64,000 bases of DNA from the NCBI GenBank assembly GCA_902573115.1, contig CACGIM010000002.1, forward strand, positions 11,649 to 75,648, given 5' to 3'. Position numbers and translations under genes: made by a program. The notes beneath the pieces are model-generated. The model searched no databases. It was given only the letters and a program-made list of their open reading frames with translations, and was not told the DNA's origin. This document shows positions 11,782 to 34,877 of this stretch, in pieces. This DNA is from an uncultured Candidatus Poseidoniales archaeon. GTDB lineage: Archaea > Thermoplasmatota > Poseidoniia > Poseidoniales > Thalassarchaeaceae. The first letter of the stretch is position 1, and every line of letters begins with the position of its first letter.

Positions 11782-14564
11782 TCCACTTCACCCCTTTTCC
11801 TTCTCTCAGTGTGTTTCCATGCCGATCCAGCAAGTCTTGGGTCATCGAGATATGATGGGTCAGGAGTGACTCTGACCGCCCAACTCGGATCAGTCTGATC
11901 CGGAGGTATCGAAGGATCCAATCCGAAAAGAGCCCCATTGTAATATTCGCTTCTTTCTTCATCCAATCTTCTTGAATAATCCCTACTTGAATGCTCACTG
12001 GCCCTATTCTCAAGTGTTGTCTGTAAATCTGAGTAATTTAGAGAAGGAGGGGAAAGATGCAGAGGTTCGAGTATTCCTTCTGATTTGCACCTTTTCTCTA
12101 TTAGATTGAACACCTTCTCTGGAGTAAGGGGGAGCTCTGATGGGCGGACCCCTATTGCATCATAAACAGCATTGCAGACTGCGGGAAGTATCGGCAAAAG
12201 GGGTCCTTCACCAGCCTCTTTGGCCCCAAATGGACCCTCGGGATCATTTGATTCCACGATGATTGGAGTCACTTCAGGCATCTCGTGGACACTAGGTATC
12301 TTGTAGTCTAGCAAATCGGGATTTAGGAGGCTTCCATTTCTGCTGTATCGCATTTCTTCAGACAACACCTGCCCCATTCCCATATGGCATGAGCCGATTA
12401 TTTGCCCCTTAACTGCTAGAGGGTTAAGCGCCTTTCCGCAATCATGAGCAGCCCAGACCTTCTCTACATTGATTTGGCCGGTCTCGACATCAACTGTGAC
12501 TTCAGCTGCATATGCTGAGAACGAGTATGCGGGAGCGAGGCCTGCTGCGGCCCCTTTGTGGGTTTTACCCATAGGTGGTGTCCTGTATGCACCAGAAGAA
12601 ATTAGGGCACCCCTATCTTCCTGAGCCTTGTGAAGAGCCTCCAAATATGATACCCCTACTGAAGGGTCTGATTTCTGGAATATTCTTCGATCGCCGACAA
12701 TAAGACCCTGTTTATTCGAGTTAGTGATTTCCGCGGTCGCATCAATGAGATTGTTCCGGATATCCATGGCAGCAGAGATTGCAGCGTTCGCATTCATGAA
12801 GGTGACTCGTGAAGAGTAAGATCCCAGATCGACAGGGGATGTATCGGATTCTCTGGATTTTATCCTAATCATGTCAAGTGGCAGACCAAGTACTTCGGCC
12901 ACAGACTGGGCCACAACCGTGTCTGATCCCTGTCCGATTTCGGCGGCACCAGTATGTACTGTGACACCTCCATCCATGTCAATCTTGAGATGAACGGTGG
13001 CGTGCGGGAATTTATTCGGGTCCCAATGAATAGGTAGGCCGCTTCCAGATATGAAGAAGCCGCAACCAACACCTATCCCCTTCCCTAGTGGAAGCTTTCT
13101 GAATTTTTTAGTCCAACCGCTTTCCTGCCTCACTCTTTCTAAGCACTCTCTCATCCCAATGCTAGTCACCCTAAATCCTGTGATCGTCGAAGAGTGGGGA
13201 GGGAGTAGATTAGCAAGACGAAGAGAAATAGGATCAACAGAAAGTTGCTCTGCCAGGTGGTCGAGACCAACTTCTACTGCACATCTTGAGTTAACCGCTC
13301 CATGCCCTCTCATTGCCCCACTCGCTGGCTTGTTGGTCCAAACTCTAGCTCCAGTGTAGTGGAAAGACCCGATCTCATAAGGTGCAGTGTGCAAAACTCC
13401 GTTGTAATACGTAGTCACATGCCCGAATGATGCAAAGGCCCCACCGTCAATCAGAGCATCCGTTTCTATGCCGCAAATCCTTCCTTCTCCATCTGCGTGA
13501 AGATTCATTTCTATCCTAGATGGGTGGCGACCCCTATTTACCCAGTATACCTCTTCTCTATCGAACGTTATTCTAACTGGCCTCCCAGATTTTCGGGCCA
13601 GAATTGCGGCACACATTTCATGAGGAAATGGGTCCGATTTTCCACCAAAGCCACCACCTACAAATGTCCGGTGTACGTTTATCTGATGCATAGGGATTTC
13701 GAGAACATCGGCTAGTGCCCTATGGACGTAATGAGGCACTTGTTGAGGAGTGTATAGTGTCAGCCTCCCTGTGGGATCCCAATGAGCCACTACGGCATGT
13801 GGTTCAGTAAATGCGTGGTTTACTCCAGCGAAGACCCAGTCCTCTTTGTAGCTAGCTACAGAACTGCTGAGCATCCCCGAAACGTCTCCAAACTCTTGGA
13901 ATACTCGCTTTTGGACATTTGACTCTCCGATGTGATACTTCCCTCTATCGTGAATTGGTTCAACACTATCTTTGAGACCGTCCCTCATGTCATGAATTGA
14001 GTCGAGTATTTCGTACTCGACCTCAATTAGTCGCTCCGCCTCTCTTGCAGTGGCCTCGTCCTCGGCAGCTACGCACGCAACAAGGTCACCAGCGTGCCTA
14101 ACCTTGTCAACCGCCATTGCATGTTCGTCCTTTGTCACGGGAAGGACCCCAAATTTGTTCTTGGCATCGACCCCGGTTGCCACGGCTACAACTCCAGGTA
14201 GCTTCAGAGCTCTAGAGCAATCAATAGAGATAACCCTAGCATAGTGGTGGGGGGATCTTACAATCCTGCCAATTAATTCTCCTTTTATTCTAACGTCGTC
14301 TCCATAGTGAGCCTGACCAGTGACCTTCCAATTACCATCTACTAGCGCTGTATCTTTCCCAATTACCTGTCCACTTACTAGAGAATCGTGCCTGTGCGAA
14401 CCCCAGGGCTGCTGTAGTTTTCCCCCCTGAGAAGATGGTATCATATTCTCCTCAATTGGCTTAGAAAAACTATTCTTCCCACCTGATCCAGGTTTGGAAA
14501 ATGGTAATTTCCCTGGTTGCTGTTTGTAGCCGACCATTTCCTTTTCCTTTTCAGTCAAAATCAA
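11778..14564 (-). CDS. Molybdenum hydroxylase large subunit, molybdopterin-binding (xanthine dehydrogenase/aldehyde oxidoreductase family), with N- and C-terminal extensions
   Basis: The a/b-hammerhead and MoCo-binding domains are recognisable (GDDV, FGGGFGGK, GQGSDTV, AMRGHGAVNS). 928 aa against a typical length of about 780. Confidence 0.8.
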   Translation of the reverse strand: MILTEKEKEMVGYKQQPGKLPFSKPGSGGKNSFSKPIEENMIPSSQGGKLQQPWGSHRHDSLVSGQVIGKDTALVDGNWKVTGQAHYGDDVRIKGELIGRIVRSPHHYARVISIDCSRALKLPGVVAVATGVDAKNKFGVLPVTKDEHAMAVDKVRHAGDLVACVAAEDEATAREAERLIEVEYEILDSIHDMRDGLKDSVEPIHDRGKYHIGESNVQKRVFQEFGDVSGMLSSSVASYKEDWVFAGVNHAFTEPHAVVAHWDPTGRLTLYTPQQVPHYVHRALADVLEIPMHQINVHRTFVGGGFGGKSDPFPHEMCAAILARKSGRPVRITFDREEVYWVNRGRHPSRIEMNLHADGEGRICGIETDALIDGGAFASFGHVTTYYNGVLHTAPYEIGSFHYTGARVWTNKPASGAMRGHGAVNSRCAVEVGLDHLAEQLSVDPISLRLANLLPPHSSTITGFRVTSIGMRECLERVRQESGWTKKFRKLPLGKGIGVGCGFFISGSGLPIHWDPNKFPHATVHLKIDMDGGVTVHTGAAEIGQGSDTVVAQSVAEVLGLPLDMIRIKSRESDTSPVDLGSYSSRVTFMNANAAISAAMDIRNNLIDATAEITNSNKQGLIVGDRRIFQKSDPSVGVSYLEALHKAQEDRGALISSGAYRTPPMGKTHKGAAAGLAPAYSFSAYAAEVTVDVETGQINVEKVWAAHDCGKALNPLAVKGQIIGSCHMGMGQVLSEEMRYSRNGSLLNPDLLDYKIPSVHEMPEVTPIIVESNDPEGPFGAKEAGEGPLLPILPAVCNAVYDAIGVRPSELPLTPEKVFNLIEKRCKSEGILEPLHLSPPSLNYSDLQTTLENRASEHSSRDYSRRLDEERSEYYNGALFGLDPSIPPDQTDPSWAVRVTPDPSYLDDPRLAGSAWKHTERRKRGEVE

Positions 14565-15174: not shown

Positions 15175-15879
15175 TCATCGAATAGGGGGAAATTCTTCAA
15201 CGGCCCTCTTTAGCACCTCTGATTCTGCCCTCTTGAGGTGCTCACCAATTGTGCTCCTTGCGATATGCATCTCATCGGCCAGCTCCCTAAGGGTGATATC
15301 TGTCCCTTCATCATAATAACCCCTATTGACAGCTAATTCGAGGACTTCCATTTGCTTTTTTGTCAAGAAATCATATTCCGAGGAGTGCCCGTTCTTAAAC
15401 ATCTGAACACTTATGCTGTCAGGGGGCATGACCATTCTAAGCTGACTTAGAAAACTGCTTATCGAATCAGAAAGACCGTAAATCCTCAATTCCAAGCCAT
15501 TGACAGAATCTATCGCATATGGGGGGTAAACGTAGATGTTGGAGAGTTCGATTGCAGCAGCTGCTAAGCTATGTGTGCAGTGAATACTAGCTAAAATTCC
15601 CTCATCATTCTCCTCATGCATTTCTAGAACTGTAAAGCTGCTTAGATCGGATATTTCTGCAAGTTCTCTTCCTTCCTTCAGTTTTACCTCCGTCAATTGT
15701 GTAACACCATCAGGTCCCAATGAAAGGTGTCCAAGTACTTCGATTCTATCGCAAATATCCATCAAAGAATCGATTTCTTTTATTCCCCTGAGTGAACTAA
15801 ATTTCCACCTGAGTAGCACCTTCCTCATGGACCTCCGAATAGCTGGATGATATTGAACATTGGTCGATATTAGCCCCAA
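15175..15879 (-). CDS. HTH_10 (bat-type) transcriptional regulator
   Basis: C-terminal LTKKQMEVLELAVNRGYYD...TLRELADEMHIARSTIGEHLKRAE is the classic HTH_10 motif. An internal ATG 17 codons in would remove the overlap with the S8 gene. Confidence 0.6.
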   Translation of the reverse strand: MGLISTNVQYHPAIRRSMRKVLLRWKFSSLRGIKEIDSLMDICDRIEVLGHLSLGPDGVTQLTEVKLKEGRELAEISDLSSFTVLEMHEENDEGILASIHCTHSLAAAAIELSNIYVYPPYAIDSVNGLELRIYGLSDSISSFLSQLRMVMPPDSISVQMFKNGHSSEYDFLTKKQMEVLELAVNRGYYDEGTDITLRELADEMHIARSTIGEHLKRAESEVLKRAVEEFPPIR

Positions 15880-17081
15880 TAAGCCTCACGAATGGCTTGA
15901 TTGGCCTCCATACAGGCAACTACATCGCTCGGACGTTGGGGCATTACTGAATCTCCTAACAAATGTAGGATCATTGGGCCTGCATTTGACATATTTACCA
16001 CACCCCATCCCACTTGGGTGCATGGGGCAACTGGTGATATTGGCAGCGTACCAGAGCTTGGATTCCAGGTTGAAAAGCTAGGATACCAAGCAGACAGGTT
16101 CAGTGAGTCTCTGATATCGTCATTGGTTATCGAGAGATTAGTTCCGTTTACTAACAAGCCTTCCCTGTCTCCAAAAGCTCCTGAACCAATATCACCGCTA
16201 TGATTTCTAAGACTGGTCAGAACCAAGCTTAGAATTCCCGCGGTACGAGGAGTGGCGAAAGAAGTACCCGAGGTGGTATGATAGCCGTCTATGTCATCGT
16301 GATTTGGCAATTCTTGGGTCCAATCGGCAGCGATATCGGGATAGGACCCGCTCATGGTTTCTTTCTGATCGTCGTCCTCCTCTGCATAACCCGATATTCC
16401 TATTGACCAAGGCGGTCCAGCAGTTGAGTCTTGTACTGCCGGCGAGGGAGTGTTGTCTGCTGCCCCCGTGTGAATTTTGCCATTTTCTACAACCGCAACC
16501 CTTGTTGCGTCTTCAATCCCTGGTACTGGGATGGACCCTATGGGGCCGAACGAAGTGGAAATCACATCAACTAGAGGTTGGTTTGCAGCCGCTAGGACAG
16601 CAGCGTCGCTAAAGCCTTCTACAAAGAAAATCACAGCATCTGGATTGGCGTCAATAACTGCCCCTGTTACGGCAGTTCCGTGACCATCACTGGGATCGTC
16701 GAGGATTGGTATGTCAGTATTGTCTTCAGGAGTAGTTCCGATTATTCTGGATCCTTTGAACCAAACGATATCCCCCGCCCCTATTTGATCCCAGCAATCC
16801 CCTCGATCAGACTCATATCTCTCTTGCCAAGTACCGTTTTTTGAAATCTCACATACCATATTCACTCCCAACCCATCTAGTAGCCACTGGGGGTATGAAT
16901 CATTCATCGAAAAGTGATTGTGGTATACGTTGATTCCGGTATCTATTGGAGCAACTACGCTAAATGCACCGAATAAATCCTCCACCAAAACGAGATCTGC
17001 CTCTCCCTCGCTCTCATCCATACACCCAGCTAAGCTCGCGGAAATGACCAATATAGAGATCAGAGTAGTTAGGACCTTCAC
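15870..17081 (-). CDS. Subtilisin-like serine peptidase (S8), lipoprotein
   Basis: Lipobox LAGC. The catalytic triad motifs DTGI, HGTAVTG and SGTSFATP are present. Confidence 0.7.
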   Translation of the reverse strand: MKVLTTLISILVISASLAGCMDESEGEADLVLVEDLFGAFSVVAPIDTGINVYHNHFSMNDSYPQWLLDGLGVNMVCEISKNGTWQERYESDRGDCWDQIGAGDIVWFKGSRIIGTTPEDNTDIPILDDPSDGHGTAVTGAVIDANPDAVIFFVEGFSDAAVLAAANQPLVDVISTSFGPIGSIPVPGIEDATRVAVVENGKIHTGAADNTPSPAVQDSTAGPPWSIGISGYAEEDDDQKETMSGSYPDIAADWTQELPNHDDIDGYHTTSGTSFATPRTAGILSLVLTSLRNHSGDIGSGAFGDREGLLVNGTNLSITNDDIRDSLNLSAWYPSFSTWNPSSGTLPISPVAPCTQVGWGVVNMSNAGPMILHLLGDSVMPQRPSDVVACMEANQAIREAYWG

Positions 17082-17112: not shown

Positions 17113-17973
17113 TTAGGTTGACACGTTCTTCCTTTCAAGCGATAAAACCTCTGCACAAACCGCAATTGCAATTTCTTCGGGTGTGTCTGCTCCTATGTCC
17201 AGGCCAATAGGGCACCTGACAGAGTCAATCAGCCATTTCTCTACCCCACTCTCAATAGCCTTCTTCTTGAAAGCAGACCATTTCTTCCTTGATCCAATGG
17301 CCCCAATTCGAGGTCGTATTCCATCTTTGCAGACTTGGAGTAATGCCACTAGCATCTCTTCATCGACTGACCAGTCGTGACTCAATAGTAGGATGTCCGA
17401 GAAACGAGATAGCGATTCCTTACTTTCGCTCTTTAGAAAATCCTTAACGGATGAGCAGAATTTCCCCTCAGCGTTTGGATATCGCTGCTCATTACAGTAT
17501 TCCTCCCTGATATCGAATACGCTATACGACCATTCCAGAGAATCACAGACCCTTGCAATAGAAAGACCAACGTGCCCTCCGCCTGCAATCAGGATGTGAG
17601 GGCGGGGATTGATCACTTCCATAGCCACTGTCACTCGACCTCCGCATAGACTGTCGAGGGCAGGTGCCTCTTTTCCTTTACCATCTCTGTTTAACTCAAA
17701 TACCTCAACTTTCCCTCCCTTTTTCCTTAGGTAAGACAAATCTTGGAAGAGAAGATCCTGAAGTTCCCTTTCCACCGTTAACTCCAATCCTGCACCACCA
17801 ATAGTTCCAAATTTTTCTCCTGAAGAGCTGATGGCTAGCCTTGCTCCTGGTTTTCCCGGAACACTGCCCCTAGCCCTGACAACCGATGCAATGGCAACTC
17901 TTTCTCCGGCCTCTACCCTCTTGATGGCCCAATTAAGAACTACGACAGTCACAATGCTCCGTCGGGGTGCCAA
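17113..17973 (-). CDS. XdhC/CoxI-family molybdoenzyme maturation factor
   Basis: N-terminal ASVVRARGSVPGKPGARLAI and the C-terminal XdhC Rossmann domain (ILIAGGGHVG). Confidence 0.7.
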   Translation of the reverse strand: MAPRRSIVTVVVLNWAIKRVEAGERVAIASVVRARGSVPGKPGARLAISSSGEKFGTIGGAGLELTVERELQDLLFQDLSYLRKKGGKVEVFELNRDGKGKEAPALDSLCGGRVTVAMEVINPRPHILIAGGGHVGLSIARVCDSLEWSYSVFDIREEYCNEQRYPNAEGKFCSSVKDFLKSESKESLSRFSDILLLSHDWSVDEEMLVALLQVCKDGIRPRIGAIGSRKKWSAFKKKAIESGVEKWLIDSVRCPIGLDIGADTPEEIAIAVCAEVLSLERKNVST

Positions 17974-26618: not shown

Positions 26619-27014
26619 TTACTCGGACATTGCCGCGACAGCACCTACTGCTGCTCTGGCGTGAGGCTCCAACCTAGGTCCGATATGCTGGGGTTCTGCC
26701 CCGGGGCCGATGATTCCGAGTCCGATAGGTTTGTTGTGAGTTATCTGAAGCTCAATCACTGCTTTGGTCACTGACTGCCCCATGACCAGACCATGGTCTG
26801 TTTCTCCCCTTTCAATTATGCCAAGGACTATCGCCCCGTCTACATTATCCTTCTTTAGCATCCTATCGAGTGCTAAGGGTGCCTCCATTGAACCTGGGAC
26901 CCAAATGATTTCAGAAACAACCCAATTCTTTGACTCTGCTTCTTGTATGGCGAATTCTAACATACTTTCGACTTCTTCTCTGTGGAAGGATCCGCAAACT
27001 ATTCCCAAATTCAT
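26619..27014 (-). CDS. ribH: 6,7-dimethyl-8-ribityllumazine synthase
   Basis: About 131 aa, the archaeal-length lumazine synthase pattern (GSMEAP, GLGIIGPG). Confidence 0.8.
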   Translation of the reverse strand: MNLGIVCGSFHREEVESMLEFAIQEAESKNWVVSEIIWVPGSMEAPLALDRMLKKDNVDGAIVLGIIERGETDHGLVMGQSVTKAVIELQITHNKPIGLGIIGPGAEPQHIGPRLEPHARAAVGAVAAMSE

Positions 27015-27628
27015 TTATTTTCCTCCATTCTCATCATTGTCTCTACTATTGCCTGAGTTCTTGAGTCAACCTCTATATTGACTTCTTGTCCGACTTGCTT
27101 ATCACCTATCGTCGTCACCCTTATCGTCTCCGGAATGATATACAAATGGAACACGTCTTCTGAAACTTCCCCGACTGTGAGAGACATACCATCAACCGCT
27201 ATGTATCCCTTCTCAAGTATGAATGGCCTACAAGAGTCTGGATTTTCCAAAACTAAGCTAATTCCATCATCTACATGATCCCTAGCCATTATTCTGGCCT
27301 TAGTCAAAATGTGCCCTGATAGAATGTGCCCCCCCAGTTCGTCTCCTAGTTTCAGTGACCTTTCGATATTAACAATGTCTCCTGTTTTTTTATTTCCCAT
27401 AGTAGATTTGCCAAGAGTTTCCTCAATTGCATCGAACTTAGCAATACATCCATCAAGAGAAACTACAGTCATACAAACCCCATCAAGAGCAACACTAGCT
27501 CCGATTTCCAATCCTTCAGTGAAACCCTCCAAGTCAATTGAAAAAGTCGAGATAGAGCCATTTTGAACCACATTGGTAATAGTTGCCTTTCCGTCTACAA
27601 TTCCTGTGAACATACTAATCCTCCTCAT
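27011..27628 (-). CDS. ribE: Riboflavin synthase (lumazine-binding, bacterial/eukaryotic-type alpha chain)
   Basis: MFTGIV N-terminus and duplicated lumazine-binding repeats (GASVALDGVCMTV / SLTV). Confidence 0.8.
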   Translation of the reverse strand: MRRISMFTGIVDGKATITNVVQNGSISTFSIDLEGFTEGLEIGASVALDGVCMTVVSLDGCIAKFDAIEETLGKSTMGNKKTGDIVNIERSLKLGDELGGHILSGHILTKARIMARDHVDDGISLVLENPDSCRPFILEKGYIAVDGMSLTVGEVSEDVFHLYIIPETIRVTTIGDKQVGQEVNIEVDSRTQAIVETMMRMEENK

Positions 27629-28073
27629 ATGGTCCGCCCTTCGTTCCCGGCCAGAGATCTAGAATTCTTGCAATTATTTTTCTTGTCCCATCAAGATCAT
27701 CTGAGAGACCTTCGACCCGGGTGACCTGTACGTGGCCATAACCATGTTCTTCTAGGCCGTTTCTTATAGCGTCAATAGAATGCTTCTGATCATATCCCAA
27801 AGCGATAATGTCAGGCTTAACGGCCTCCAGAATATCAAAAATCGGTATTCCGGGAGGGTTTCCAATGATTGCTTGATCAACTGGCTTTAATCCCTCAACC
27901 ATCCTTCTTCTGAGATTCTGCCCTGTGACTGGCTCGTGTTTCTGTATTCTTACAGTCTCATCATGGGCGATCACGACCACTAGCTCATGGCCCAGTGACT
28001 TTGCCTGCTCAACATAATGAAGATGCCCTGCATGCAGAAGATCAAAAATCCCAACGGCCATCACTCTAACCAT
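27615..28073 (-). CDS. ribL: Archaeal FAD synthetase (CTP-dependent FMN adenylyltransferase)
   Basis: Cytidylyltransferase-fold motif GIFDLLHAGH, about 150 aa. Confidence 0.75.
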   Translation of the reverse strand: MVRVMAVGIFDLLHAGHLHYVEQAKSLGHELVVVIAHDETVRIQKHEPVTGQNLRRRMVEGLKPVDQAIIGNPPGIPIFDILEAVKPDIIALGYDQKHSIDAIRNGLEEHGYGHVQVTRVEGLSDDLDGTRKIIARILDLWPGTKGGPYEED

Positions 28074-28103
28074 GCTACAGTCCTTTGTTTTCCAAATTAG
28101 TCT

Positions 28104-28820
28104 TTAATCAATTGCAGAAGTAATTTCTTCTCCAGTGATCATTGGAATTCCGTTTGCAAGAGAGTATGCCCTTGCGCCATCGAGAGAAAGAGCTCCATCC
28201 CCCTCCGGTTCTAGCATTTCGGCCCCTATCGTGCAGGGCACCATTCCAGCAAGTCTGGCAATGGAAACCGCCAATTCTGTGTGGCCTTGTCTAGTCTTCA
28301 GGCCGCCAGGAGCCTCTCTGCATACAGGTATGTGTCCCGGAGTCCTAAATTCTAAGCCAAATGCCGTAATGGCATCTTCGCTACTTCTTCCGATCATCTC
28401 CCCAGAGAGCTCTCCGAACCTTCTAGTCGTAAGTGCCCTATCTCTGTCGGTGATTCCAGTGAATGTTTCTCTGTGATTCAATGAGAGCGTGAAAGCCGAT
28501 CGATTGTCGTATTGGAGGTCATCGGTAATGAGTTTACCAAGAACGGGATTCTCTTCTACAAGAGTTGGATGAGTGTGAATATCTTGCAACCAAGGTAACC
28601 CAAAGATCTCGCCAATCTCATTTCCTATCGCAAGGAATAACAACCCACCGCAGTCATTTCTGAGTGTTCTGATCACCTCAGGAGTGGCAGCACTAGCTGG
28701 CCACAGCAAATCGGTCTCCCTTTCTCTGAAATCTGAATCGAATACCATTACAGGTTTTCCTGTTGCAAATGCAGCTATCGCTCTCCCTACCTCCGACTCC
28801 ATGTCTACCGGAGGGGTCAT
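28104..28820 (-). CDS. ribB: 3,4-dihydroxy-2-butanone 4-phosphate synthase
   Basis: Matches the DHBP synthase pattern (VFDSDFRERETDL, TGITD.DRA). Confidence 0.8.
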   Translation of the reverse strand: MTPPVDMESEVGRAIAAFATGKPVMVFDSDFRERETDLLWPASAATPEVIRTLRNDCGGLLFLAIGNEIGEIFGLPWLQDIHTHPTLVEENPVLGKLITDDLQYDNRSAFTLSLNHRETFTGITDRDRALTTRRFGELSGEMIGRSSEDAITAFGLEFRTPGHIPVCREAPGGLKTRQGHTELAVSIARLAGMVPCTIGAEMLEPEGDGALSLDGARAYSLANGIPMITGEEITSAID

Positions 28821-28877
28821 ACCTACCCTTTCTTTTCGGTCTAGAAAAAGTCATGTTTACCGACGGTAGCGCAAAGT

Positions 28878-29750
28878 ATGGTGGATATCGTGAAGGCTTC
28901 AGCACCCCTAAGGGTAGATCTTGCCGGAGGATGGACTGATGTAGCGCCTTTCCCTTCGGATTTTGGAGGTGAAGTTGTTAACTTTGCAATAAACAAGAGA
29001 GTTGTTGCAACACGTGATGTGAAATCTACAGATTATCCTCTGGAGTTTGACTTCCCGGTTCCAAGGGGGTCCGGACTTGGTACTAGCTCGGCGATGTATG
29101 TGGCGATTTCAGCACTTTCTTCTACCAAGGAGGCTTCTGGGCCAAGGATAATGGCAGAGGAGGCCCACAAAATGGAATATCAAAGCGGCAACTTATGTGG
29201 TAGACAAGACCAGTGGGCGTCTGCTTTGGGGGGTTTCAATCACCTACTTTTCCTTGGAGATTCAGTCGAAGAGATGCCATTTGAGCCAGCCAAGTCTGCA
29301 AAAAATTGGTTGAAGAAACACCTAATTATCTCATTTTCCGGTATTTCAAGAAATTCTGGCGAAATGCAGAGGTCTGTATGGGAGTCTTATTCCAGGGGAG
29401 AGGGCAAAACATTGGAAGGACTACACAGAATCAGAGGAGCGGTCAAACCTATGGCTATTGGACTTCAGCAGGATAGAAGGGACATGGTGGTGACTTCATT
29501 AGGTGAGATTTGCAAAGGAGTAGATTTGATTAATCCCGAGATTCATGATCCATTTCGCTCAGTTGTATACCCTCTAATCGAAAATGGGTCGGTCGCAGCA
29601 TGGAAAGCACTTGGAGCCGGCGGAGGTGGATGTTCGGCTATTCTTTGTTCTCCTTTTGGATTGGATACGGCCAACGAAGCGCTTAGAAATGCCGGATGGG
29701 AAATTATTGATTGGGATTTTGAGGATGAAGGTGTAATGCTAGGAACATGA
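28878..29750 (+). CDS. GHMP-family sugar kinase (HddA/fucokinase-like)
   Basis: N-terminal APLRVDLAGGWTDV motif typical of the GHMP sugar-1-kinase/HddA clade, GHMP motif PRGSGLGTSSA, C-terminal GAGGGGC. Confidence 0.5.
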   Translation: MVDIVKASAPLRVDLAGGWTDVAPFPSDFGGEVVNFAINKRVVATRDVKSTDYPLEFDFPVPRGSGLGTSSAMYVAISALSSTKEASGPRIMAEEAHKMEYQSGNLCGRQDQWASALGGFNHLLFLGDSVEEMPFEPAKSAKNWLKKHLIISFSGISRNSGEMQRSVWESYSRGEGKTLEGLHRIRGAVKPMAIGLQQDRRDMVVTSLGEICKGVDLINPEIHDPFRSVVYPLIENGSVAAWKALGAGGGGCSAILCSPFGLDTANEALRNAGWEIIDWDFEDEGVMLGT

Positions 29751-29795: not shown

Positions 29796-32700
29796 ATGGG
29801 CGCACGCAGAGCTGTGTATGCTTCGACGATACTACTCATCCTCATAGCGCCATTAAGCTCCTCTTCCATTCATCAAGAGCAAGATCGAATTGGGGGATTT
29901 GATGCAGATGGCGTTTGGTCCCCTAGCGTAGAGCTGGAGATCCACAGAGAATGGTGGACAGAATGGAGCAGAGATAAGGATCACAACGCACTAGACGATC
30001 GTCTGGAGTGGCTCATTGAACAACCAGGGGAAATCCAAAGAAATTGGTGGAAAAGGGCTCCAGATGGAAGTGCAAGAGTTTTCGTGGATTATGATCATCA
30101 TCCAACAGATGCGGATATTTACGCTTTGGAGTCTATTGGGGTGAAAGTGACCCACCGATTCGAGTACCTTGACACGGTTTCGGCTTCGGCACCATTCGAT
30201 ATAATCGTCAGGGAAGATGGGATTAGATCCCTATCAGGGGTAGTGATGATTGAGGATCTAGGTCTTGCAGAAACAAATATGCATGAAGCGAATCCAAACA
30301 TGGGAGTAGACTCGGTTTGGCAGGATCTGGGGTTAGATGGAACGGGCTCTGTGATCGCAGTATTGGATACTGGAGTTAGGGGGGATCATGAAGGTCTAAA
30401 TGACATGGATGACGATCCATTTACCTGCATAGATGATCCTCCCGAGCCTGATCCTCTTGACCCCGAACCTGAACCAATTCCTTCAGACTGTGACCCTAAA
30501 ATCATAGCTTTCTTTGACGCGGTTATAACCGACGAGGAACAGGATCCCTCGACGTCTTATGATTCGGGTACACATGGGACTCACGTAGCTGGAATAGCGG
30601 CTGGTTCTGGGGGAGGGCAAAGTGACTCAAGTACAGGTCTTAGGTACGTTGGGGCAGCTCCTGGCGCGTATCTGATCAATATCTTGGGATGTTGCGATGG
30701 TGACATAGAAGATGTAATGCAAGGAGCGGAATGGGCAATAAACAACAAAGACAAGTATGGTATCGATATCGTAACGTCTTCTCTTGGCGAGCAGCAATTA
30801 GAATTGCATCTCGATAACGACGGAAATTCCGCTTGGAGTCGTCAGATGGACATGGTCGTGGAGGCGGGAATTATCACGACCTTGTCTGCTGGTAACGAGT
30901 TTGGAGGTGCGACTCTCGCGGGATGCAACACAATAGATAGTCCCGGAGATGCGAGGCTGCCAGTCACGGTAGCAAGTTTGGATAAGAATCTAGGTTTAGC
31001 CATATACAGTAGTAGGGGGTATACCTCCGATCTTAGGGTAAAACCTGATGTTGCGACAATCGGATCCAATATAATGGCCCCAGATGCGGCGACCCAAGAT
31101 GGTTACACAAGTAAGTCAGGCACCAGTATGGCCACCCCATTAATGGCAGGAATCGCTGCTCTGATGGTTCAGGCAAATCCCGATTTAACCCCTTCCGAGT
31201 TCAAGGATATTATCTCAGCCCACGCAATAGAGCGAGAAATTCAGCTACTTAATGACCCTGGATTTAATGATTGCAGCATATTAGAAAGTCGTCCGGATAA
31301 CGAGTTCGGCTATGGGCAAGCAGACCCCACTGCCTTCGTCGAAGCGGCCGGAAGCATTGATCGTTCACTCAATGTTTCTATGGATGTGAATACTCTAGAA
31401 CAAATTGGTAATGAAAGCTATGTTACTGGCACATCCTCCGGAGCCGCACCTGGAACTGGTAGCGTCGAGGTTAAGGTAGGAGGGGGAGAGTGGTTTGTAG
31501 CAGCTGACCTATCGATAAATGGGGACTGGTCATCGTGGAGCATCAAATTGGATCCTCATGAAAAATCGGGGAACTCCACCATTTACGCAAGACTAGCGGT
31601 TTCTGAAGACAGTGTGTCACCAGTTGACGCTCGCAGGGTTGTGTTGGTCGATGCGCAAGCAACCGGAAGCTCATCCTCGCCTGGTGGATTGGTGAATTTA
31701 GGCCCTATTACATTCTTCATTCCATTCATTGTTGCAATTGTTTTGGTTGTCTTCATTGGAAGGAAAGAGGCGTGGACGTTCGATCAGGAAGATTCTGACA
31801 AAGACGATTCGAAAATGTCCTCGGCCGATTTGGAAAAGTCAGACTATCAGACTATCATTGAAAGGTTCTCTAATGGTTTCAAAGAGCTGGGCAAGGGTGG
31901 CACGATAACTGATAACTCAGTGAAGAGGGTACTGACTCTTTGTGTTCTGTATTTTGCACAGGGACTTCCTTCTGGATTCGCCATAGTTACCTTTGCAGCT
32001 TACCTAGTCTCAAACGGAGTCTCAGTCCCAGAGATAGCTATTCTATTTGCAACCGTGTCTCTCCCTTGGACATTCAAGTGGATTTGGGGGCCGCTAGTTG
32101 ATTCAGTGTATGTGGAAAGGTACGGCCCCAGAAGACAGTGGATTCTATTCGCACAAACAGGGATGGCCATATCACTGGGCTCCCTATTGCTGGTCTCTGA
32201 TTTGAATGGGCAAATAGATCTTGTTGCGAGGATTCTGTTCATTCACAACATTTTCGCATCGATGCAGGATGTCGCTACGGACGCTCTAGCTGTTGAGGTT
32301 TTGCAGCCTGATGAGGTCGCCAGAGTAAATGGACTCATGTTCGCTGCAAAGAGGGTCGGGATTATCTTCGGAGGTGCCGTTTTGGGTGTACTGATATCGA
32401 AGATTGGTATCTCTGGAGTCATTGCAGCTCAGTTAGTAATGCTAGCGATTATTATTGTCGTGCCACTAACTATGGTGGAAAAGGAAGGTGTGAAGCTTTT
32501 CCCATGGTCCAAATCACATGAAGGGCTTGATTCATCTGAAGATCGAGCTGATTCGGAGGCGTTGATCGCAGAAGTTGTAGATGAGTCGGATCTATCTCCC
32601 TGGGAAGAGGAGGATGAGTTTAGAGTTGCTAGAACAGTCGGATTTAGTATAGCTGAAGACTCTGTTTCCTTCGCTTCATTCTTCGCAATTCTTGGAATCT

Positions 32701-33671
32701 CGATTTGGCTCTTTGGATTCGTAATTGACGTTTTTACAGTGGATTGGACCTTCGGAAAACATGTGAGAGAAGGGTTTCCCGCACTGGAAGGCAAGAAAAT
32801 CCTAGGGCTGGATATTTTGCCGTGGTCTGGAACCAATAGAGTCAGTTTAGCATTAATCTTGCTTTCAGTCTTCTCGGTAGTTTACTCAAGATTCTCTGAC
32901 TCGGAACAAAGTGCATCATTACCCAACCCCTTCCTTTTGCTACCAGAGTCTAGTAGAATAACGATTGCCAGAACTTCATTCTACCTCACCAAGGCCTTCT
33001 CGGTAAGGTCTGCTTTCCTACTTGTTATTGCTGGCTTGCTTGGAGAGCTGTATTATTTCACTAGCCCAATTTACGTTGATATATTCATCAACGAGGCTGG
33101 GTGGTCACAAGAGAAGTATAATGGGATTGTGGGGGGTATAGCGCTGCTAGGTTCCGTTACTGGACAAATAATTGGAGGGATTCTCGGGGACAAGTTCGGG
33201 ATTCGCAGAGTTGCGATGGTGTCATTTGTGGTTCTCGCTCTTGCAAACGCTACTTTTGCATTCCTAGAGCCTTTCTGGGGCAATACGATCATTATGACTG
33301 TCTATCTCATTGGACAGTATTTTGTAGCGGGCATAGCCTTAATTTGCATAATTTCTCTTTGTATGAGATTGACATGGAGCAAAGTAGGCGGAACTCAATT
33401 TACTGCCTACATGTCCATACTGAACACTTCGGTAGTATTCGCATACACATTAACTGAGAGGATGATTTCGATATTCAACTATACCTCTGCAATATACATC
33501 GGAGCTGCACTTACACTGGTGACTACATTCTTCCTCTTCTTCATTGATGAGAATGAGACTGACAGAGTATTGGAGGGAAGAGATACAGGAGAGGATGAGA
33601 TAGATGATCTGGGAGAGTCTGTTTGGTTGAAAAAGGAGCAAGGGGGAGAGAATCCTGTCACGTCTTCATGA
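29796..33671 (+). CDS. Fusion protein: secreted S8 subtilase domain, a single TM anchor, and a C-terminal AmpG-like MFS transporter domain of 12-14 TM
   Basis: Signal peptide. S8 triad motifs AVLDTGV, HGTHVAG and GTSMATP. The TM is PITFFIPFIVAIVLVVFIG. MFS signature LPWTFKWIWGPLVD plus 12-14 TM. One uninterrupted 1291-codon frame. Confidence 0.7.
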   Translation: MGARRAVYASTILLILIAPLSSSSIHQEQDRIGGFDADGVWSPSVELEIHREWWTEWSRDKDHNALDDRLEWLIEQPGEIQRNWWKRAPDGSARVFVDYDHHPTDADIYALESIGVKVTHRFEYLDTVSASAPFDIIVREDGIRSLSGVVMIEDLGLAETNMHEANPNMGVDSVWQDLGLDGTGSVIAVLDTGVRGDHEGLNDMDDDPFTCIDDPPEPDPLDPEPEPIPSDCDPKIIAFFDAVITDEEQDPSTSYDSGTHGTHVAGIAAGSGGGQSDSSTGLRYVGAAPGAYLINILGCCDGDIEDVMQGAEWAINNKDKYGIDIVTSSLGEQQLELHLDNDGNSAWSRQMDMVVEAGIITTLSAGNEFGGATLAGCNTIDSPGDARLPVTVASLDKNLGLAIYSSRGYTSDLRVKPDVATIGSNIMAPDAATQDGYTSKSGTSMATPLMAGIAALMVQANPDLTPSEFKDIISAHAIEREIQLLNDPGFNDCSILESRPDNEFGYGQADPTAFVEAAGSIDRSLNVSMDVNTLEQIGNESYVTGTSSGAAPGTGSVEVKVGGGEWFVAADLSINGDWSSWSIKLDPHEKSGNSTIYARLAVSEDSVSPVDARRVVLVDAQATGSSSSPGGLVNLGPITFFIPFIVAIVLVVFIGRKEAWTFDQEDSDKDDSKMSSADLEKSDYQTIIERFSNGFKELGKGGTITDNSVKRVLTLCVLYFAQGLPSGFAIVTFAAYLVSNGVSVPEIAILFATVSLPWTFKWIWGPLVDSVYVERYGPRRQWILFAQTGMAISLGSLLLVSDLNGQIDLVARILFIHNIFASMQDVATDALAVEVLQPDEVARVNGLMFAAKRVGIIFGGAVLGVLISKIGISGVIAAQLVMLAIIIVVPLTMVEKEGVKLFPWSKSHEGLDSSEDRADSEALIAEVVDESDLSPWEEEDEFRVARTVGFSIAEDSVSFASFFAILGISIWLFGFVIDVFTVDWTFGKHVREGFPALEGKKILGLDILPWSGTNRVSLALILLSVFSVVYSRFSDSEQSASLPNPFLLLPESSRITIARTSFYLTKAFSVRSAFLLVIAGLLGELYYFTSPIYVDIFINEAGWSQEKYNGIVGGIALLGSVTGQIIGGILGDKFGIRRVAMVSFVVLALANATFAFLEPFWGNTIIMTVYLIGQYFVAGIALICIISLCMRLTWSKVGGTQFTAYMSILNTSVVFAYTLTERMISIFNYTSAIYIGAALTLVTTFFLFFIDENETDRVLEGRDTGEDEIDDLGESVWLKKEQGGENPVTSS

Positions 33672-33921
33672 GATCATCGGAGGCGCCGATCGGGATTTCC
33701 TTGTCTTCACTCAGACCATATGTCCCTATTGCACGAGGGCTTTCAGAACCCTTGATTCGAAGGGGTTTAGTTACATCGAGGTAAATCTTGACAGCTTTGA
33801 TGGATTGAGAAAGGAGGTAGTTGCTGTGACAGGTCACAGAACGGTCCCAGTTGTCTTCGATATGAGAGGCGAAGAACCGGTCTTTGTAGGGGGCTCGGAC
33901 CATTTAATCGAATACGTCTAG
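33670..33921 (+). CDS. Glutaredoxin-like ORF (CPYC active site) with no ATG/GTG/TTG start. Expression is uncertain.
   Basis: Frame +1 relative to the upstream gene translates to ...DFLVFTQTICPYCTRAF...TVPVVF...GGSDHLIEYV*. The frame is open from 33631 and contains no canonical start before CPYC. Confidence 0.45.
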   Translation, partial: EIIGGADRDFLVFTQTICPYCTRAFRTLDSKGFSYIEVNLDSFDGLRKEVVAVTGHRTVPVVFDMRGEEPVFVGGSDHLIEYV

Positions 33922-34877
33922 AGGCTCCATGATTCCGTTATCCCACCTGCAATCATGATCCTCAAGAATGTAGATCCTCCTGTGAATGTAGCTGTCAGAG
34001 TGTACTCTTCTGAGGGAGATGGAATAGTACCTAGAGTCCCTATCTCACTGGCCCCTGGACCCCATACCCTCTCAAGAGCGGAAACTGACAAGTGGTCCCG
34101 TAGAGTCATAGTTATCGTGGATCCCGCGCCACTTTCTGCATCAAGGAAGTAAATCATCTCATCCCAGCCACCGTCGGAGGGATGGTCACTGACCAGGAAG
34201 GTATCCCTAAATTCAAAGTCTGTTCCAGTATCTTCCCAAGTATTGCTAAACCAGTCTCCACCCCTTACGAAGTATACATCCCCCGTGTGCCCTTCCCCCC
34301 TATCTGACAGCATCATTCTGAGATTATCTATGCCCGATTGATCCTTCCAAACAAACGTGGAGAAGAATCCCGCTTCACTATCAAAAACATAGTCCAATCT
34401 TGAGCCATCATTAGATGTTGCGAATACTGTGACTATACCTCCATTCAAATCCGAGACAATCGCTTCCCACTCGACAGAAAATAGGGTAAATGACCATGAG
34501 TTTCCTTCCTCTAATGGAAATTTGAGAACTGTTTGGGGCTCTCCGTTCTCAAATGCACTTAGATCGGTGTGGGTGATCCTCCCAAGAAACGGGTTGTGAT
34601 TCAATACTGCATGCCTCCTTGCCTCTGTTAAGCTGGAGATTGCCAGCATATATGCCGTACCATCCTCTTCACTCGTACTGGCAACTACAAGCCTAGTTGT
34701 GTCATCACTAAATTCAGGCGTAGAGAAGGTGTATAGCCACCAGTCTCCAACTTCCCAAGATGGAACATCAATAGGTCCCTGATCGCCTCTTTTTTCTGTA
34801 TCGGAACCACTAACACAACCTGACAAACAGGAAGCTAGCAAAACAATGAGAGTAGCAACTGCTCCGCCTTTCATCAT
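33918..34877 (-). CDS. Secreted lipoprotein, function unknown
   Basis: Signal peptide with lipobox LSGC, acidic, about 319 aa. Confidence 0.45.
   Translation of the reverse strand: MMKGGAVATLIVLLASCLSGCVSGSDTEKRGDQGPIDVPSWEVGDWWLYTFSTPEFSDDTTRLVVASTSEEDGTAYMLAISSLTEARRHAVLNHNPFLGRITHTDLSAFENGEPQTVLKFPLEEGNSWSFTLFSVEWEAIVSDLNGGIVTVFATSNDGSRLDYVFDSEAGFFSTFVWKDQSGIDNLRMMLSDRGEGHTGDVYFVRGGDWFSNTWEDTGTDFEFRDTFLVSDHPSDGGWDEMIYFLDAESGAGSTITMTLRDHLSVSALERVWGPGASEIGTLGTIPSPSEEYTLTATFTGGSTFLRIMIAGGITESWSL

What the first reader, a model, noticed from the sequence alone, without database searches (positions are those of the whole stretch)
29796..33671. Secreted subtilase fused in one polypeptide to an AmpG-like MFS transporter
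A single 1291-codon frame encodes four parts in order. First a signal peptide plus a complete S8 peptidase with the D, H and S motifs present. Then a single TM anchor. Then a cytoplasmic linker of about 60 aa. Last an MFS domain of 12-14 TM with the LPWxxKxxWxPxxD signature of AmpG/acetyl-CoA-transporter-like permeases. Tethering an extracellular protease to an importer would couple protein breakdown directly to uptake of the products, which suits a proteolytic heterotrophic lifestyle. I do not know this architecture from characterised proteins. The peptidase domain also carries an unusual acidic Pro-rich insert (DDPPEPDPLDPEPEPIPSDCDP) between the Asp and His regions.
Basis: partly seen in the sequence, partly recalled or inferred. 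Interest (0 to 1): 0.75.

Follow-up and report, generated by a model that had tools for sequence, protein, structure and literature searches.

The report
Membrane-tethered subtilase fused to AmpG-like transporter
Marine Group II archaea make one conserved protein that joins an outward-facing protein-cutting enzyme to an AmpG-like membrane transporter, which probably lets the cell keep the peptides it cuts, though no uptake has been measured.

Summary
Window 29796..33671 (+) is one 1291-codon gene. In order it encodes a signal peptide, a pro-region, a complete S8 subtilase, an all-beta domain, one TM anchor, a ~50-aa linker and a 14-TM MFS closest to AmpG and SLC33A1.

It is not an assembly artefact. 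The uninterrupted fusion recurs in more than 120 protein clusters and in about 50 Poseidoniales species genomes, including single-cell and long-read assemblies. A 47%-identical version occurs in Marine Group III. The catalytic D/H/N/S residues are invariant in 41 of 41 sequences. Both halves are under strong purifying selection (dN/dS 0.01-0.05), whereas the anchor and linker are not (0.6-0.7).

The S8 module is swappable. At the same locus, other Poseidoniales lineages carry the same anchor-linker-MFS core behind either an M28 metallopeptidase with intact metal ligands or an unassigned Cys-rich domain.

The best reading is that proteolysis is tethered to uptake of its products. This is inferred, not shown. 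The substrate and transport direction are unknown, and non-peptidase fusions such as cupredoxin exist in the same MFS clade.

Databases hold the fusion with automatic names only. I found no paper describing it. I rate it a new variant of a known kind.

The parts
29796..33671 (+). Whole gene: 1291 codons plus stop, encoding the subtilase-anchor-linker-MFS fusion protein
   Evidence: ORF listing. Full-length homologues at 59-99% identity in more than 120 clusters. The frame is uninterrupted in all complete related loci.
29796..29870 (+). Signal peptide, aa 1-25 (MGARRAVYASTILLILIAPLSSSSI). The n-region carries a mostly conserved Arg-Arg.
   Evidence: Hydropathy peak at aa 7-25. N-termini of 41 homologues compared. 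No dedicated signal-peptide predictor was available.
29871..30305 (+). N-terminal pro-region, aa 26-170. It has a conserved Trp-rich stretch followed by a beta-alpha-beta-beta-alpha-beta unit (aa ~93-153) typical of subtilase propeptides.
   Evidence: AF2 secondary structure with pLDDT 68-84 for this stretch. Weak profile alignment to the pro-region of Tk-SP, PDB 3afg. No Pfam I9 hit. Mean column conservation 0.75.
30306..31316 (+). S8 subtilase catalytic domain, aa 171-507. Catalytic codons: D191 (30366-30368), H260 (30573-30575), oxyanion N367 (30894-30896), S444 (31125-31127).
   Evidence: Pfam PF00082, E=1.2e-44, full model length. Best solved relative is Tk-SP 3afg, E=2e-36 (single sequence) and 1.2e-40 (profile). 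D/H/N/S invariant in 41/41 sequences and this is the most conserved region, 0.90. dN/dS 0.02.
30426..30491 (+). Cys-bracketed acidic Pro-rich insert, aa 211-232 (CIDDPPEPDPLDPEPEPIPSDC), between the Asp and His regions
   Evidence: Conserved in MGII fusions, including both Cys. Absent from the nearest unfused S8 relatives and from the MGIII fusion. No non-synonymous change against L001.
31317..31700 (+). Post-catalytic all-beta domain (aa 508-620) and Ser/Gly-rich stalk (aa 621-635)
   Evidence: AF2 gives a run of beta strands at aa ~526-618 with pLDDT about 60-83. No Pfam match. Conservation 0.75.
31701..31766 (+). Single TM anchor ('TM0'), aa 636-657, with an FFxP(F/W)F-type motif shared by all N-terminally extended relatives
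   Evidence: Strongest hydropathy peak in the protein, 2.73. Helix in the AF2 model. A similar anchor is present in the S8, M28, cupredoxin and unassigned-ectodomain forms. dN/dS 0.71.
31767..31916 (+). Cytoplasmic linker, aa 658-707. It is poorly conserved and variable in length, and ends in a conserved LTxNKxRR just before TM1.
   Evidence: Conservation 0.22 with 31% gaps. dN/dS 0.57. AF2 pLDDT is low apart from one helix.
31917..32480 (+). MFS N-bundle, TM1-6 (aa 708-895). It contains the PAT-family signature LPWTFKWIWGPLVD (32061-32102), a motif-A-like ERYGPRRQW (32115-32141) and the acidic TM4 cluster QDVATDALAVE (32265-32297).
   Evidence: Pfam MFS_1, Acatn and BT1. Alignment to E. coli AmpG and human SLC33A1. 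K761, D825 and D829, which align with AmpG K62, D125 and D129, are invariant in 58 sequences. dN/dS 0.05.
32481..32900 (+). Acidic central loop (aa 896-947) and an extra pair of TM helices (aa ~948-1035) between the two bundles
   Evidence: Hydropathy. AF2 helices at aa ~959-981 and ~1013-1033. This is the least conserved part of the transporter, 0.37. Some AmpG orthologues are reported to have an internal two-helix insertion here (PMC11568325).
32928..33545 (+). MFS C-bundle, TM7-12 (aa 1045-1250), with a second motif-A-like GDKFGIRR (33186-33209)
   Evidence: AF2 pLDDT 70-91. Foldseek top hits are AmpG structures, with 8zke at target TM-score 0.86. dN/dS 0.01.
33546..33668 (+). Acidic C-terminal tail, aa 1251-1291, inferred to be cytoplasmic
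   Evidence: Composition of 14 D/E and 4 K/R. Low pLDDT.

Best explanation
The gene encodes a single-chain ecto-protease/importer. The signal peptide exports the N-terminal part, so a pre-pro-subtilase of the archaeal Tk-SP type folds outside the cell. It is held a short stalk away from the membrane by one anchor helix (TM0). A floppy ~50-aa cytoplasmic linker then leads into a 14-TM MFS of the peptide/acetyl-CoA (PAT, AmpG-like) group. That MFS keeps the Lys and Asp residues that the AmpG structural study (PMC11568325) places in AmpG's substrate cavity and discusses in relation to protonation.

The proposed mechanism is that the tethered protease cuts dissolved or particle-bound protein at the cell surface. 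The resulting short peptides are released within nanometres of the transporter's outward-facing cavity and are taken up with protons before they diffuse away. This would be privatised proteolysis.

Shown here: the architecture, its conservation, intact catalytic residues, purifying selection on both halves, and the interchangeability of the ectodomain with another peptidase at the same locus. Inferred: topology, import direction, peptide substrate and hand-off.
For: Architecture and family assignment.

The fusion is real and old.
- More than 120 full-length clusters at 59-99% identity.
- About 50 species-level Poseidoniales genomes, including single-cell (AG-343-E09, AG-422-I18) and long-read (LRMED-022, 1.6-Mb contig) assemblies.
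- A 47%-identical version in Marine Group III, in a different gene neighbourhood.

Both halves are functional.
- D191/H260/N367/S444 are invariant in 41/41 sequences, and S8 is the most conserved region.
- The AmpG-equivalent K761/D825/D829 are invariant.
- dN/dS is 0.02 for S8 and 0.01-0.05 for the MFS, against 0.57-0.71 for linker and anchor.

There is independent recurrence with an unrelated peptidase.
- Peptidase_M28 + anchor + linker + the same MFS lies upstream of the same abhydrolase / 320-aa protein / H+-PPase neighbours.
- At least 55 full-length M28-MFS sequences at 55-100% identity have all five M28 metal-ligand motifs invariant.
- A further group has M28 joined to a more divergent PAT-like membrane domain.

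Topology is internally consistent. There is one anchor before an MFS whose motif-A loops must be cytoplasmic, giving 15 TM in all, N-terminus out and C-terminus in.

Literature context.
- S08A and M28A are the dominant, highly transcribed 'extracellular peptidases' of MG-II/III (PMC4660358; PMC5069720).
- AmpG is reported as a predicted proton-motive-force-driven importer of peptide-bearing muropeptides (PMC11568325).
- A. baumannii AmpG1 tethers the lytic transglycosylase that makes its substrate (PMC13507758).
Against: No transport or protease assay exists for any member.

The PAT/AmpG-like clan carries chemically diverse substrates. From established knowledge of these families, these include muropeptides, acetyl-CoA, siderophores and folates. 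SLC33A1 moves its substrate out of the cytosol, so neither substrate nor direction follows from family resemblance.

The protein scores far below the curated cut-offs of the AmpG (121 vs 350 bits) and RhtX/FptX (99 vs 356) models.

The same MFS clade is also fused to a cupredoxin domain, to FG-GAP repeats and to a 3-keto-disaccharide-hydrolase domain. In many MGIIb genomes the orthologous gene carries an unassigned Cys-rich domain instead of a peptidase. Ectodomain fusion is therefore not specific to peptidases.

A subtilase is an endopeptidase, and its products may be too long for an MFS.

The AF2 model gives no reliable geometry between the protease and the transporter, because the S8 part has pLDDT below 50.

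Whether the protease stays attached after maturation is unknown.
Confidence: 0.55

Rival explanations
1. Co-localisation without hand-off. The subtilase is a general surface protease (nutrition, surface-protein maturation or turnover), and the MFS carries an unrelated solute. The fusion only ensures membrane anchoring, equal stoichiometry or co-expression.
For: The same MFS clade is fused to non-peptidase domains: cupredoxin, FG-GAP and 3-keto-disaccharide hydrolase. Unassigned ectodomains occupy the orthologous locus in MGIIb. The linker and anchor are poorly constrained. The PAT clan is not restricted to peptide substrates (plus established knowledge of these families).
Against: One TM helix already anchors the protease, so a 14-TM domain under dN/dS 0.01-0.05 is not needed for anchoring. 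Two unrelated peptidase families, both with intact active sites, were recruited to the same core at the same locus. The fusion has been kept across MGII and MGIII.
Confidence: 0.2
2. Envelope recycling or sensing, in the manner of AmpG. The protease trims the cell's own surface (glyco)proteins or a specific extracellular protein. The MFS then re-imports a defined fragment for recycling or as an inducer signal, rather than for bulk nutrition.
For: The closest solved relatives by fold are AmpG permeases, which import cell-wall turnover fragments and feed a signalling pathway. A. baumannii AmpG1 is physically coupled to the hydrolase that acts on the cell's own wall. The gene appears as a single conserved locus in each of the 80 genomes recovered, like a housekeeping function.
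Against: No murein-type substrate is known in these archaea (established knowledge; not tested here). No regulator or recycling enzyme is conserved next to the gene. The neighbours are riboflavin genes, a GHMP kinase, an unknown 319-aa protein and H+-PPase. Swapping an endopeptidase for an M28 exopeptidase or an unrelated domain fits a generic substrate better than a specific one.
Confidence: 0.12
3. Export and processing. The MFS exports a peptide or other precursor, and the outward-facing peptidase matures it. This would be analogous to leader-peptide removal by subtilisin-like LanP after export, or to peptidase-containing ABC exporters.
For: MFS proteins include exporters, and SLC33A1 in this clan moves substrate out of the cytosol (established knowledge; sequence and fold resemblance to SLC33A1). 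Extracellular S8 leader peptidases are a known kind (established knowledge).
Against: No precursor peptide or biosynthetic genes are conserved in the neighbourhood, either in the window or in the MGIII and M28 loci. The closest relatives by fold and profile are AmpG importers. An M28 exopeptidase or a non-peptidase domain can replace the S8.
Confidence: 0.06
4. Artefact. The two domains are separate genes joined by a mis-assembly, frameshift or read-through error.
For: Most sequences come from metagenome assemblies. No reads were available for this window.
Against: The same uninterrupted frame occurs in more than 120 clusters from ENA, JGI, NCBI, Tara and Logan. It also occurs in about 50 species genomes, including single-cell and long-read assemblies, and at 47% identity in MGIII. 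Composition is uniform across the junction. The anchor and linker are homologous across all forms.
Confidence: 0.01

Closest known systems
E. coli AmpG anhydromuropeptide permease (PAT family, TC 2.A.1.25; PDB 9c3f, 8zgz, 8zke, 9j9z)
   Same: It is the best structural match of the MFS half (Foldseek E=1.4e-12; 8zke target TM-score 0.86). It is also the best profile match among solved transporters (6.5e-16). Shared features are the LPxxxKxxWxPxxD signature, Lys62 and Asp125/Asp129 equivalents, motif A, and 14 TM rather than 12.
   Different: Identity is only about 14-15%. The score is far below the TIGR00901 cut-off. The extra helix pair is internal rather than C-terminal. The host is an archaeon, where no murein is known (established knowledge). 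AmpG has no N-terminal ectodomain, anchor helix or protease.
Acinetobacter baumannii AmpG1 with its periplasmic Ig-like domain that binds the lytic transglycosylase Slt (PMC13507758)
   Same: It is an AmpG-family permease physically coupled to the extracytoplasmic hydrolase that produces its substrate. The authors interpret this as substrate channelling and privatisation. This is the same logic proposed here.
   Different: The coupling there is non-covalent, through a domain inserted in the middle of the transporter. The enzyme is a glycan-cleaving transglycosylase. Here the enzyme is a protease covalently fused at the N-terminus through an extra TM helix.
Tk-SP, the subtilisin-like protease of Thermococcus kodakarensis (PDB 3afg)
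   Same: It is the closest solved S8 (E=2e-36 by sequence, 1.2e-40 by profile). It has the same layout of propeptide, catalytic domain and C-terminal beta domain.
   Different: Tk-SP is a soluble secreted enzyme. The window protein adds the 22-residue Cys-bracketed acidic Pro-rich insert, a stalk, a TM anchor and a transporter.
Mammalian PepT1/PepT2 (SLC15, POT-family MFS) extracellular domain that binds trypsin (PMC4597091)
   Same: It is an MFS peptide importer whose extracellular domain is proposed to recruit a protease to the site of peptide uptake (title and abstract only).
   Different: It belongs to a different MFS family. The ectodomain is inserted between TM9 and TM10. The protease is a separate secreted protein, not part of the polypeptide.
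Peptidase-containing ABC transporters (PCATs) and LanP/LanT-type systems
   Same: A peptidase and a transporter act on the same peptide, and in PCATs they are in one polypeptide (established knowledge).
   Different: Those are ABC exporters with a cytoplasmic C39 cysteine peptidase that removes leader peptides. Here the transporter is an MFS, the peptidase is an extracellular S8, and there is no precursor gene nearby.

Membership tests
Peptidase family S8 (subtilases), Pfam PF00082 | Profile match above the curated threshold over the whole catalytic domain | tested here: met
   153.2 bits against a cut-off of 21.8, model positions 1-288/288, aa 182-507.
Peptidase family S8 (subtilases), Pfam PF00082 | Catalytic triad in the order Asp-His-Ser, plus the oxyanion-hole Asn | tested here: met
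   D191, H260, N367 and S444 lie in canonical motifs and are invariant in 41/41 homologues.
Peptidase family S8 (subtilases), Pfam PF00082 | N-terminal propeptide (I9-type intramolecular chaperone) and a secretion signal | tested here: inconclusive
   AF2 gives a beta-alpha-beta-beta-alpha-beta unit at aa ~93-153 with pLDDT 68-84. There is a weak alignment to the Tk-SP pro-region. There is no Pfam I9 hit. The signal peptide was judged from hydropathy only.
Major facilitator superfamily, Pfam PF07690 | Profile match above threshold, two six-helix bundles and motif A in the TM2-TM3 loop | tested here: met
   95.6 bits against a cut-off of 33.4. AF2 gives a 6+6 core at pLDDT 70-90. ERYGPRRQW and GDKFGIRR are the motif-A-like loops. 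All Foldseek hits are MFS transporters.
AmpG family muropeptide transporters (NCBIfam TIGR00901; equivalogs NF008238, NF008867) | Score at or above the curated family cut-off | tested here: not met
   TIGR00901 scores 121.2 bits against a cut-off of 350. NF008867 scores 60 against 656. NF008238 scores 45 against 756. It resembles AmpG but is not a member of the AmpG family as curated.
AmpG family muropeptide transporters (NCBIfam TIGR00901; equivalogs NF008238, NF008867) | AmpG-type fold with two extra TM helices and conserved Lys62, Asp125 and Asp129 | tested here: met
   AmpG structures are the top Foldseek hits. The model has 14 TM. K761, D825 and D829 align with these residues and are invariant. 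The extra pair is internal, as reported for some orthologues.
AmpG family muropeptide transporters (NCBIfam TIGR00901; equivalogs NF008238, NF008867) | Transports GlcNAc-anhydroMurNAc(-peptides) | not testable with these tools
It is unlikely, because these archaea are not known to make murein (established knowledge).
Acetyl-CoA transporter family (Pfam PF13000, Acatn / SLC33A1) | Profile match above threshold along the protein | tested here: inconclusive
   45.7 bits exceeds the 23.7 cut-off, but the match covers only model positions 4-85 of 546. The PDB match to SLC33A1 (E about 7e-12) is confined to TM1-TM5.
RhtX/FptX siderophore transporters (TIGR02718) | Score at or above the curated cut-off | tested here: not met
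   99 bits against a cut-off of 356.15.
Peptidase-containing transporters of the PCAT type | ABC exporter with an N-terminal cytoplasmic C39 peptidase domain | tested here: not met
   No ABC or C39 domains are present. The transporter is an MFS and the peptidase is an S8 placed before a signal-anchored TM helix.

The most novel reading that the evidence does not exclude
Poseidoniia (Marine Groups II and III) possess a modular class of 'ecto-enzyme-TM0-PAT transporter' proteins. A conserved anchor-linker-14-TM importer core acquires interchangeable extracellular modules at one locus: S8 endopeptidase, M28 exopeptidase, or a new Cys-rich beta domain. This would make a covalent hydrolysis-to-uptake machine that privatises the products of extracellular proteolysis. 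It would be a protein-degrading counterpart of 'selfish' polysaccharide uptake, and possibly a main route by which these very abundant planktonic archaea consume dissolved protein.
Probability: 0.4. Interest if true: 0.85.

Novelty: new variant of a known kind. Interest (0 to 1): 0.64.

Why it matters
Marine Group II archaea are among the most abundant heterotrophs in the surface ocean and remain uncultured. Their role in protein turnover has been inferred mainly from 'extracellular' S8 and M28 peptidase genes and transcripts (PMC4660358, PMC5069720, PMC6864105).

If a conserved S8, and in other lineages an M28, is in fact the outer half of a transporter, two things follow. Those peptidases are cell-bound rather than released. 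And hydrolysis products are captured by the cell that made them instead of becoming public goods. That changes how enzyme-activity and carbon-flux measurements attributed to these archaea should be read.

It also gives a concrete, clonable target for testing what they eat. For transporter biology it would be the first covalent fusion of an endopeptidase to an MFS importer. It would extend the enzyme-tethering logic recently shown for A. baumannii AmpG1.

Tried and rejected
- AlphaFold2 on aa 92-1291 with a 58-sequence alignment gave a usable MFS half and a usable beta domain. The S8 catalytic domain came out at pLDDT below 50, because the alignment is shallow (59-95% identity). No statement about protease-transporter geometry is possible.
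- AlphaFold2 on the MGIIb short-form ectodomain used 14 fragmentary sequences and gave mean pLDDT 45. It was not taken to a fold search.
- The homologue search with the short-form ectodomain returned only 18 fragments and no occurrence outside this gene family.
- hhalign of the short-form ectodomain against the long form's pro-region and post-S8 domain found no relationship, with probability below 1%.
- Pfam at E up to 10 on the pro-region, the post-S8 domain and three unassigned ectodomains found nothing credible.
- The conserved 319-aa neighbour has no Pfam or PDB match.
Residues 170-1291 were used instead.
- Literature searches for the fusion found no description: MGII/Poseidoniales with subtilisin, MFS, AmpG or major facilitator, plus generic S8-MFS fusion terms. 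The library holds only open-access papers, so absence is not proof.
- Chimeric assembly was rejected.
- A second copy of the transporter in the window was rejected: tblastn finds only this gene.
- The neighbour-joining tree of MFS domains places the short forms inside the MGII S8 clade and M28/cupredoxin forms in a sister clade. It is crude and is used only as a hint that ectodomains were exchanged.

Full report
**Observation.**
Window 29796..33671 (+) is a single ATG-initiated ORF of 1291 codons. Base composition is even across it, and nothing in the composition profile marks the junction between its two halves.

Pfam places a complete Peptidase_S8 domain at aa 182-507 (E=1.2e-44, model positions 1-288 of 288). 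An MFS domain follows from aa ~715, with additional Acatn and BT1 matches at its start. In NCBIfam the best transporter models are the AmpG family (TIGR00901, E=4e-35) and RhtX/FptX (E=3e-28). Both score far below their curated cut-offs: 121 against 350 bits and 99 against 356.

Hydropathy shows three features before the polytopic region:
- a signal-like N-terminus at aa 7-25;
- one very strong anchor at aa 636-654, followed by GRKEAW;
- a 50-57 aa hydrophilic stretch.

**The fusion is real and conserved.**
A search of 5.8 billion clustered proteins returned more than 120 full-length clusters at 59-99% identity. All carry both S8 and MFS Pfam domains. They come from ENA, JGI, NCBI, Tara and Logan. 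The only names attached are automatic: 'hypothetical protein', or JGI's 'subtilisin family serine protease/MFS family permease'.

A scan of one genome per GTDB species found 80 loci, and every one carries a Marine Group II / Poseidoniales-type label. Two of these are single-cell genomes and one lies on a 1.6-Mb long-read contig. The closest is Euryarchaeota archaeon UBA462, at 95% identity. In every complete locus the frame runs uninterrupted from the signal peptide to the end of the MFS. The single exception, L050, contains 398 N.

At 50%-identity clustering the S8-MFS architecture collapses to two clusters. One is the MGII cluster. The other is 47% identical, and its members are labelled Marine Group III or Poseidoniia. 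It sits in a different, archaeal gene neighbourhood. Mis-assembly is excluded.

**Both halves are under selection.**
In 41 complete homologues D191, H260, N367 and S444 are invariant. The S8 catalytic domain is the most conserved region (mean column conservation 0.90), and the two MFS bundles score 0.77-0.78. The anchor scores 0.48 and the linker 0.22 with 31% gaps, the lowest values in the protein.

Against the 95%-identical relative L001, dN/dS values are:
- S8 domain: 0.02
- MFS bundles: 0.05 and 0.01
- anchor: 0.71
- linker: 0.57

The picture is of two constrained functional modules joined by a tether that need only span the membrane and reach the transporter.

**The protease half.**
The closest solved structure is Tk-SP of Thermococcus kodakarensis (3afg), with E=2e-36 by sequence and 1.2e-40 by family profile. 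The profile alignment extends weakly into the Tk-SP pro-region.

The AF2 model is poor for the catalytic domain but informative at both ends. At aa ~93-153 it gives a beta-alpha-beta-beta-alpha-beta unit with pLDDT 68-84, which is the layout of subtilase propeptides. At aa ~526-618 it gives an all-beta domain with pLDDT around 60-83. The ectodomain is therefore a pre-pro-subtilase with a C-terminal beta domain, followed by a 15-residue Ser/Gly stalk.

It is conserved throughout the MGII fusions. The nearest unfused S8 relatives lack it (Asp-to-His spacing 46-54 residues against 69 here), and so does the MGIII fusion. Its role is unknown. A disulfide-closed acidic surface loop is my inference from the sequence.

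**The transporter half.**
By sequence the nearest solved proteins are human SLC33A1 (E about 7e-12, TM1-5 only) and E. coli AmpG. With the family profile AmpG becomes the best transporter hit, at 6.5e-16. Foldseek on the AF2 model ranks AmpG structures first (E=1.4e-12, and target TM-score 0.86 for inward-facing 8zke), followed by SLC33A1.

The alignment puts K761, D825 and D829 opposite AmpG Lys62, Asp125 and Asp129. [quoted passage not shown] All three are invariant in 58 homologues.

The model has 6 + 2 + 6 helices. AmpG also has 14 TM, and some orthologues are reported to carry the extra pair between the bundles, as here. The protein therefore works like a member of the PAT/AmpG-like group. 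It fails the curated AmpG-family threshold, so I do not file it as an AmpG.

**Topology.**
No dedicated predictor was available, so this is inferred. The evidence is a cleavable signal-like N-terminus, one anchor with basic residues on its C-terminal side, motif-A-like loops (ERYGPRRQW after TM2 and GDKFGIRR in the C-bundle) that are cytoplasmic in all MFS proteins, and 15 TM in total. Together these put the protease outside and both ends of the MFS inside.

**The subtilase is one interchangeable module.**

- About 25 of the 80 species loci, mostly Thalassarchaeaceae, match only from aa ~599 onward. In those genomes the gene lies in the same neighbourhood: riboflavin genes, a GHMP-type kinase just upstream, and a ~320-aa unknown protein downstream. 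It encodes an 880-900 aa protein made of a signal peptide, a ~215-aa Cys-rich domain with no Pfam match, and then the same anchor, linker and MFS.
- The representative search also found the same core behind a Peptidase_M28 domain, behind a cupredoxin domain and behind other unassigned domains. Standalone 420-470 aa relatives occur at 32-40% identity, and there are C-terminal fusions to FG-GAP and 3-keto-disaccharide-hydrolase domains.
- All N-terminally extended forms share a signal peptide, a TM0 with an FFxP(F/W)F-type motif and a ~50-aa linker.

The M28 form is the most informative. It is followed by the same abhydrolase, 320-aa protein (58% identical to MGIIb copies) and H+-PPase (85-88% identical) as the S8 and short forms, so it is a positional orthologue. 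At least 55 full-length M28-MFS sequences at 55-100% identity keep all five M28 metal-ligand motifs invariant. A further group joins M28 to a more divergent PAT-like membrane domain.

A crude neighbour-joining tree of the MFS domains puts the short forms inside the MGII S8 clade. This hints at replacement of S8 rather than independent origin.

**Mechanism.**
The best-supported reading is tethered proteolysis coupled to uptake. The subtilase cuts protein at the cell surface, and the adjacent transporter imports the peptides, probably with protons.

Support for this reading:
- two unrelated peptidase families, both catalytically intact, were recruited to the same core;
- both halves are strongly constrained;
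- S08A and M28A are the two families reported as the dominant, highly transcribed 'extracellular' peptidases of MG-II/III (PMC4660358; PMC5069720; also PMC6864105), and none of the three papers uses the terms 'MFS' or 'major facilitator';
- there are characterised precedents for tethering a hydrolase to the transporter of its product. A. baumannii AmpG1 binds the lytic transglycosylase Slt through a periplasmic domain (PMC13507758). PepT1/2 ectodomains bind trypsin (PMC4597091).

Evidence against:
- substrate and direction are untested;
- the clan includes non-peptide substrates and at least one outward-moving member, SLC33A1 (established knowledge);
- non-peptidase ectodomains occur in the same clade;
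- an endopeptidase may produce peptides too long for an MFS;
- shedding of the protease after maturation cannot be excluded.

I put this explanation at about 0.55. Co-localisation without hand-off is about 0.2, AmpG-like recycling or sensing about 0.12, export-and-process about 0.06, and artefact about 0.01.

**Novelty and verdict.**
The sequences are public and automatically annotated, so the protein itself is not new to databases. I found no paper that describes the fusion, and the MGII literature treats these S8 and M28 enzymes simply as extracellular peptidases. Both domains belong to well-known superfamilies, and the principle of coupling a hydrolase to the importer of its product is known in non-covalent form.

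What is new is the covalent N-terminal fusion of an endopeptidase to an AmpG-like MFS through an extra TM helix. Also new are its conservation across Poseidoniia and the modular exchange of the ectodomain at one locus. I classify it as a new variant of a known kind, with interest 0.64.

Noticed in passing
L055 7383..10037 (+); L073 7296..9968 (+); about 25 loci among L053-L077: In many MGIIb (Thalassarchaeaceae) genomes the syntenic gene lacks S8. Instead it has a ~215-aa Cys-rich, beta-rich ectodomain (motifs NHPT, YMYFWG, GYGEI, ESGNCGG, FRMYYS) with no Pfam match and no relatives outside this gene family. P0124 and P0129 ectodomains look related to it by eye.
   Followed up: partly
L081 6001..8610 (+); also L082 and L083: A Peptidase_M28-anchor-linker-MFS fusion (869 aa) lies upstream of the same abhydrolase, 320-aa protein and H+-PPase genes. 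At least 55 diverged full-length members have invariant metal-ligand motifs. A sister group (for example P0435, 908 aa) has M28 joined to a more divergent PAT-like polytopic domain.
   Followed up: yes
window 33918..34877 (-): A 319-aa protein with a lipoprotein-like N-terminus (LLASCLSGC) lies convergent to the fusion gene. It is conserved next to the S8, short and M28 forms in 74 loci. It has no Pfam or PDB match. It may be a functional partner.
   Followed up: partly
window 29796..29870; N-termini of L001-L079: Most S8-type fusions carry a twin arginine in the signal n-region (for example GRRA, SRRAVAL), which resembles a Tat motif. The short, M28 and MGIII forms do not. A Tat-exported ectodomain ahead of a polytopic membrane domain would be unusual.
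   Followed up: no
window 15870..17081 (-): A second, divergent S8-like ORF of 403 aa (Pfam E=1e-8) lies directly beside an HTH_10 regulator (15175..15879). Xanthine-dehydrogenase-type molybdoenzyme genes lie nearby (11778..14564, 17113..17973).
   Followed up: partly
L085 1686..3668; proteins P0131, P0150, P0219: The same MFS clade is also fused to an N-terminal cupredoxin (plastocyanin/azurin-like) domain. It also has C-terminal fusions to a 3-keto-disaccharide-hydrolase domain and to FG-GAP repeats. This transporter core seems generally prone to acquiring extracytoplasmic modules.
   Followed up: partly
window 26619..29750: A riboflavin gene cluster lies on the minus strand: lumazine synthase, riboflavin synthase, a cytidylyltransferase-like FAD-synthase candidate and DHBP synthase. 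A GHMP-type kinase on the plus strand ends 45 nt before the fusion gene. It matches upstream sequence in 59 fetched sources, but is not upstream of the M28 form.
   Followed up: partly
L013 and L014 (TMED192); L022 and L079 (SP42): Two MAGs each appear to hold two S8-MFS copies at ~63% identity to the query. It is not clear whether these are paralogues or bin redundancy. The pairs L038/L049 and L046/L080 are single genes split across contig ends.
   Followed up: no
window 33658..33903 (-): An 81-aa ORF overlaps the 3' end of the fusion gene on the opposite strand, in the convergent intergenic region. It is probably spurious.
   Followed up: no
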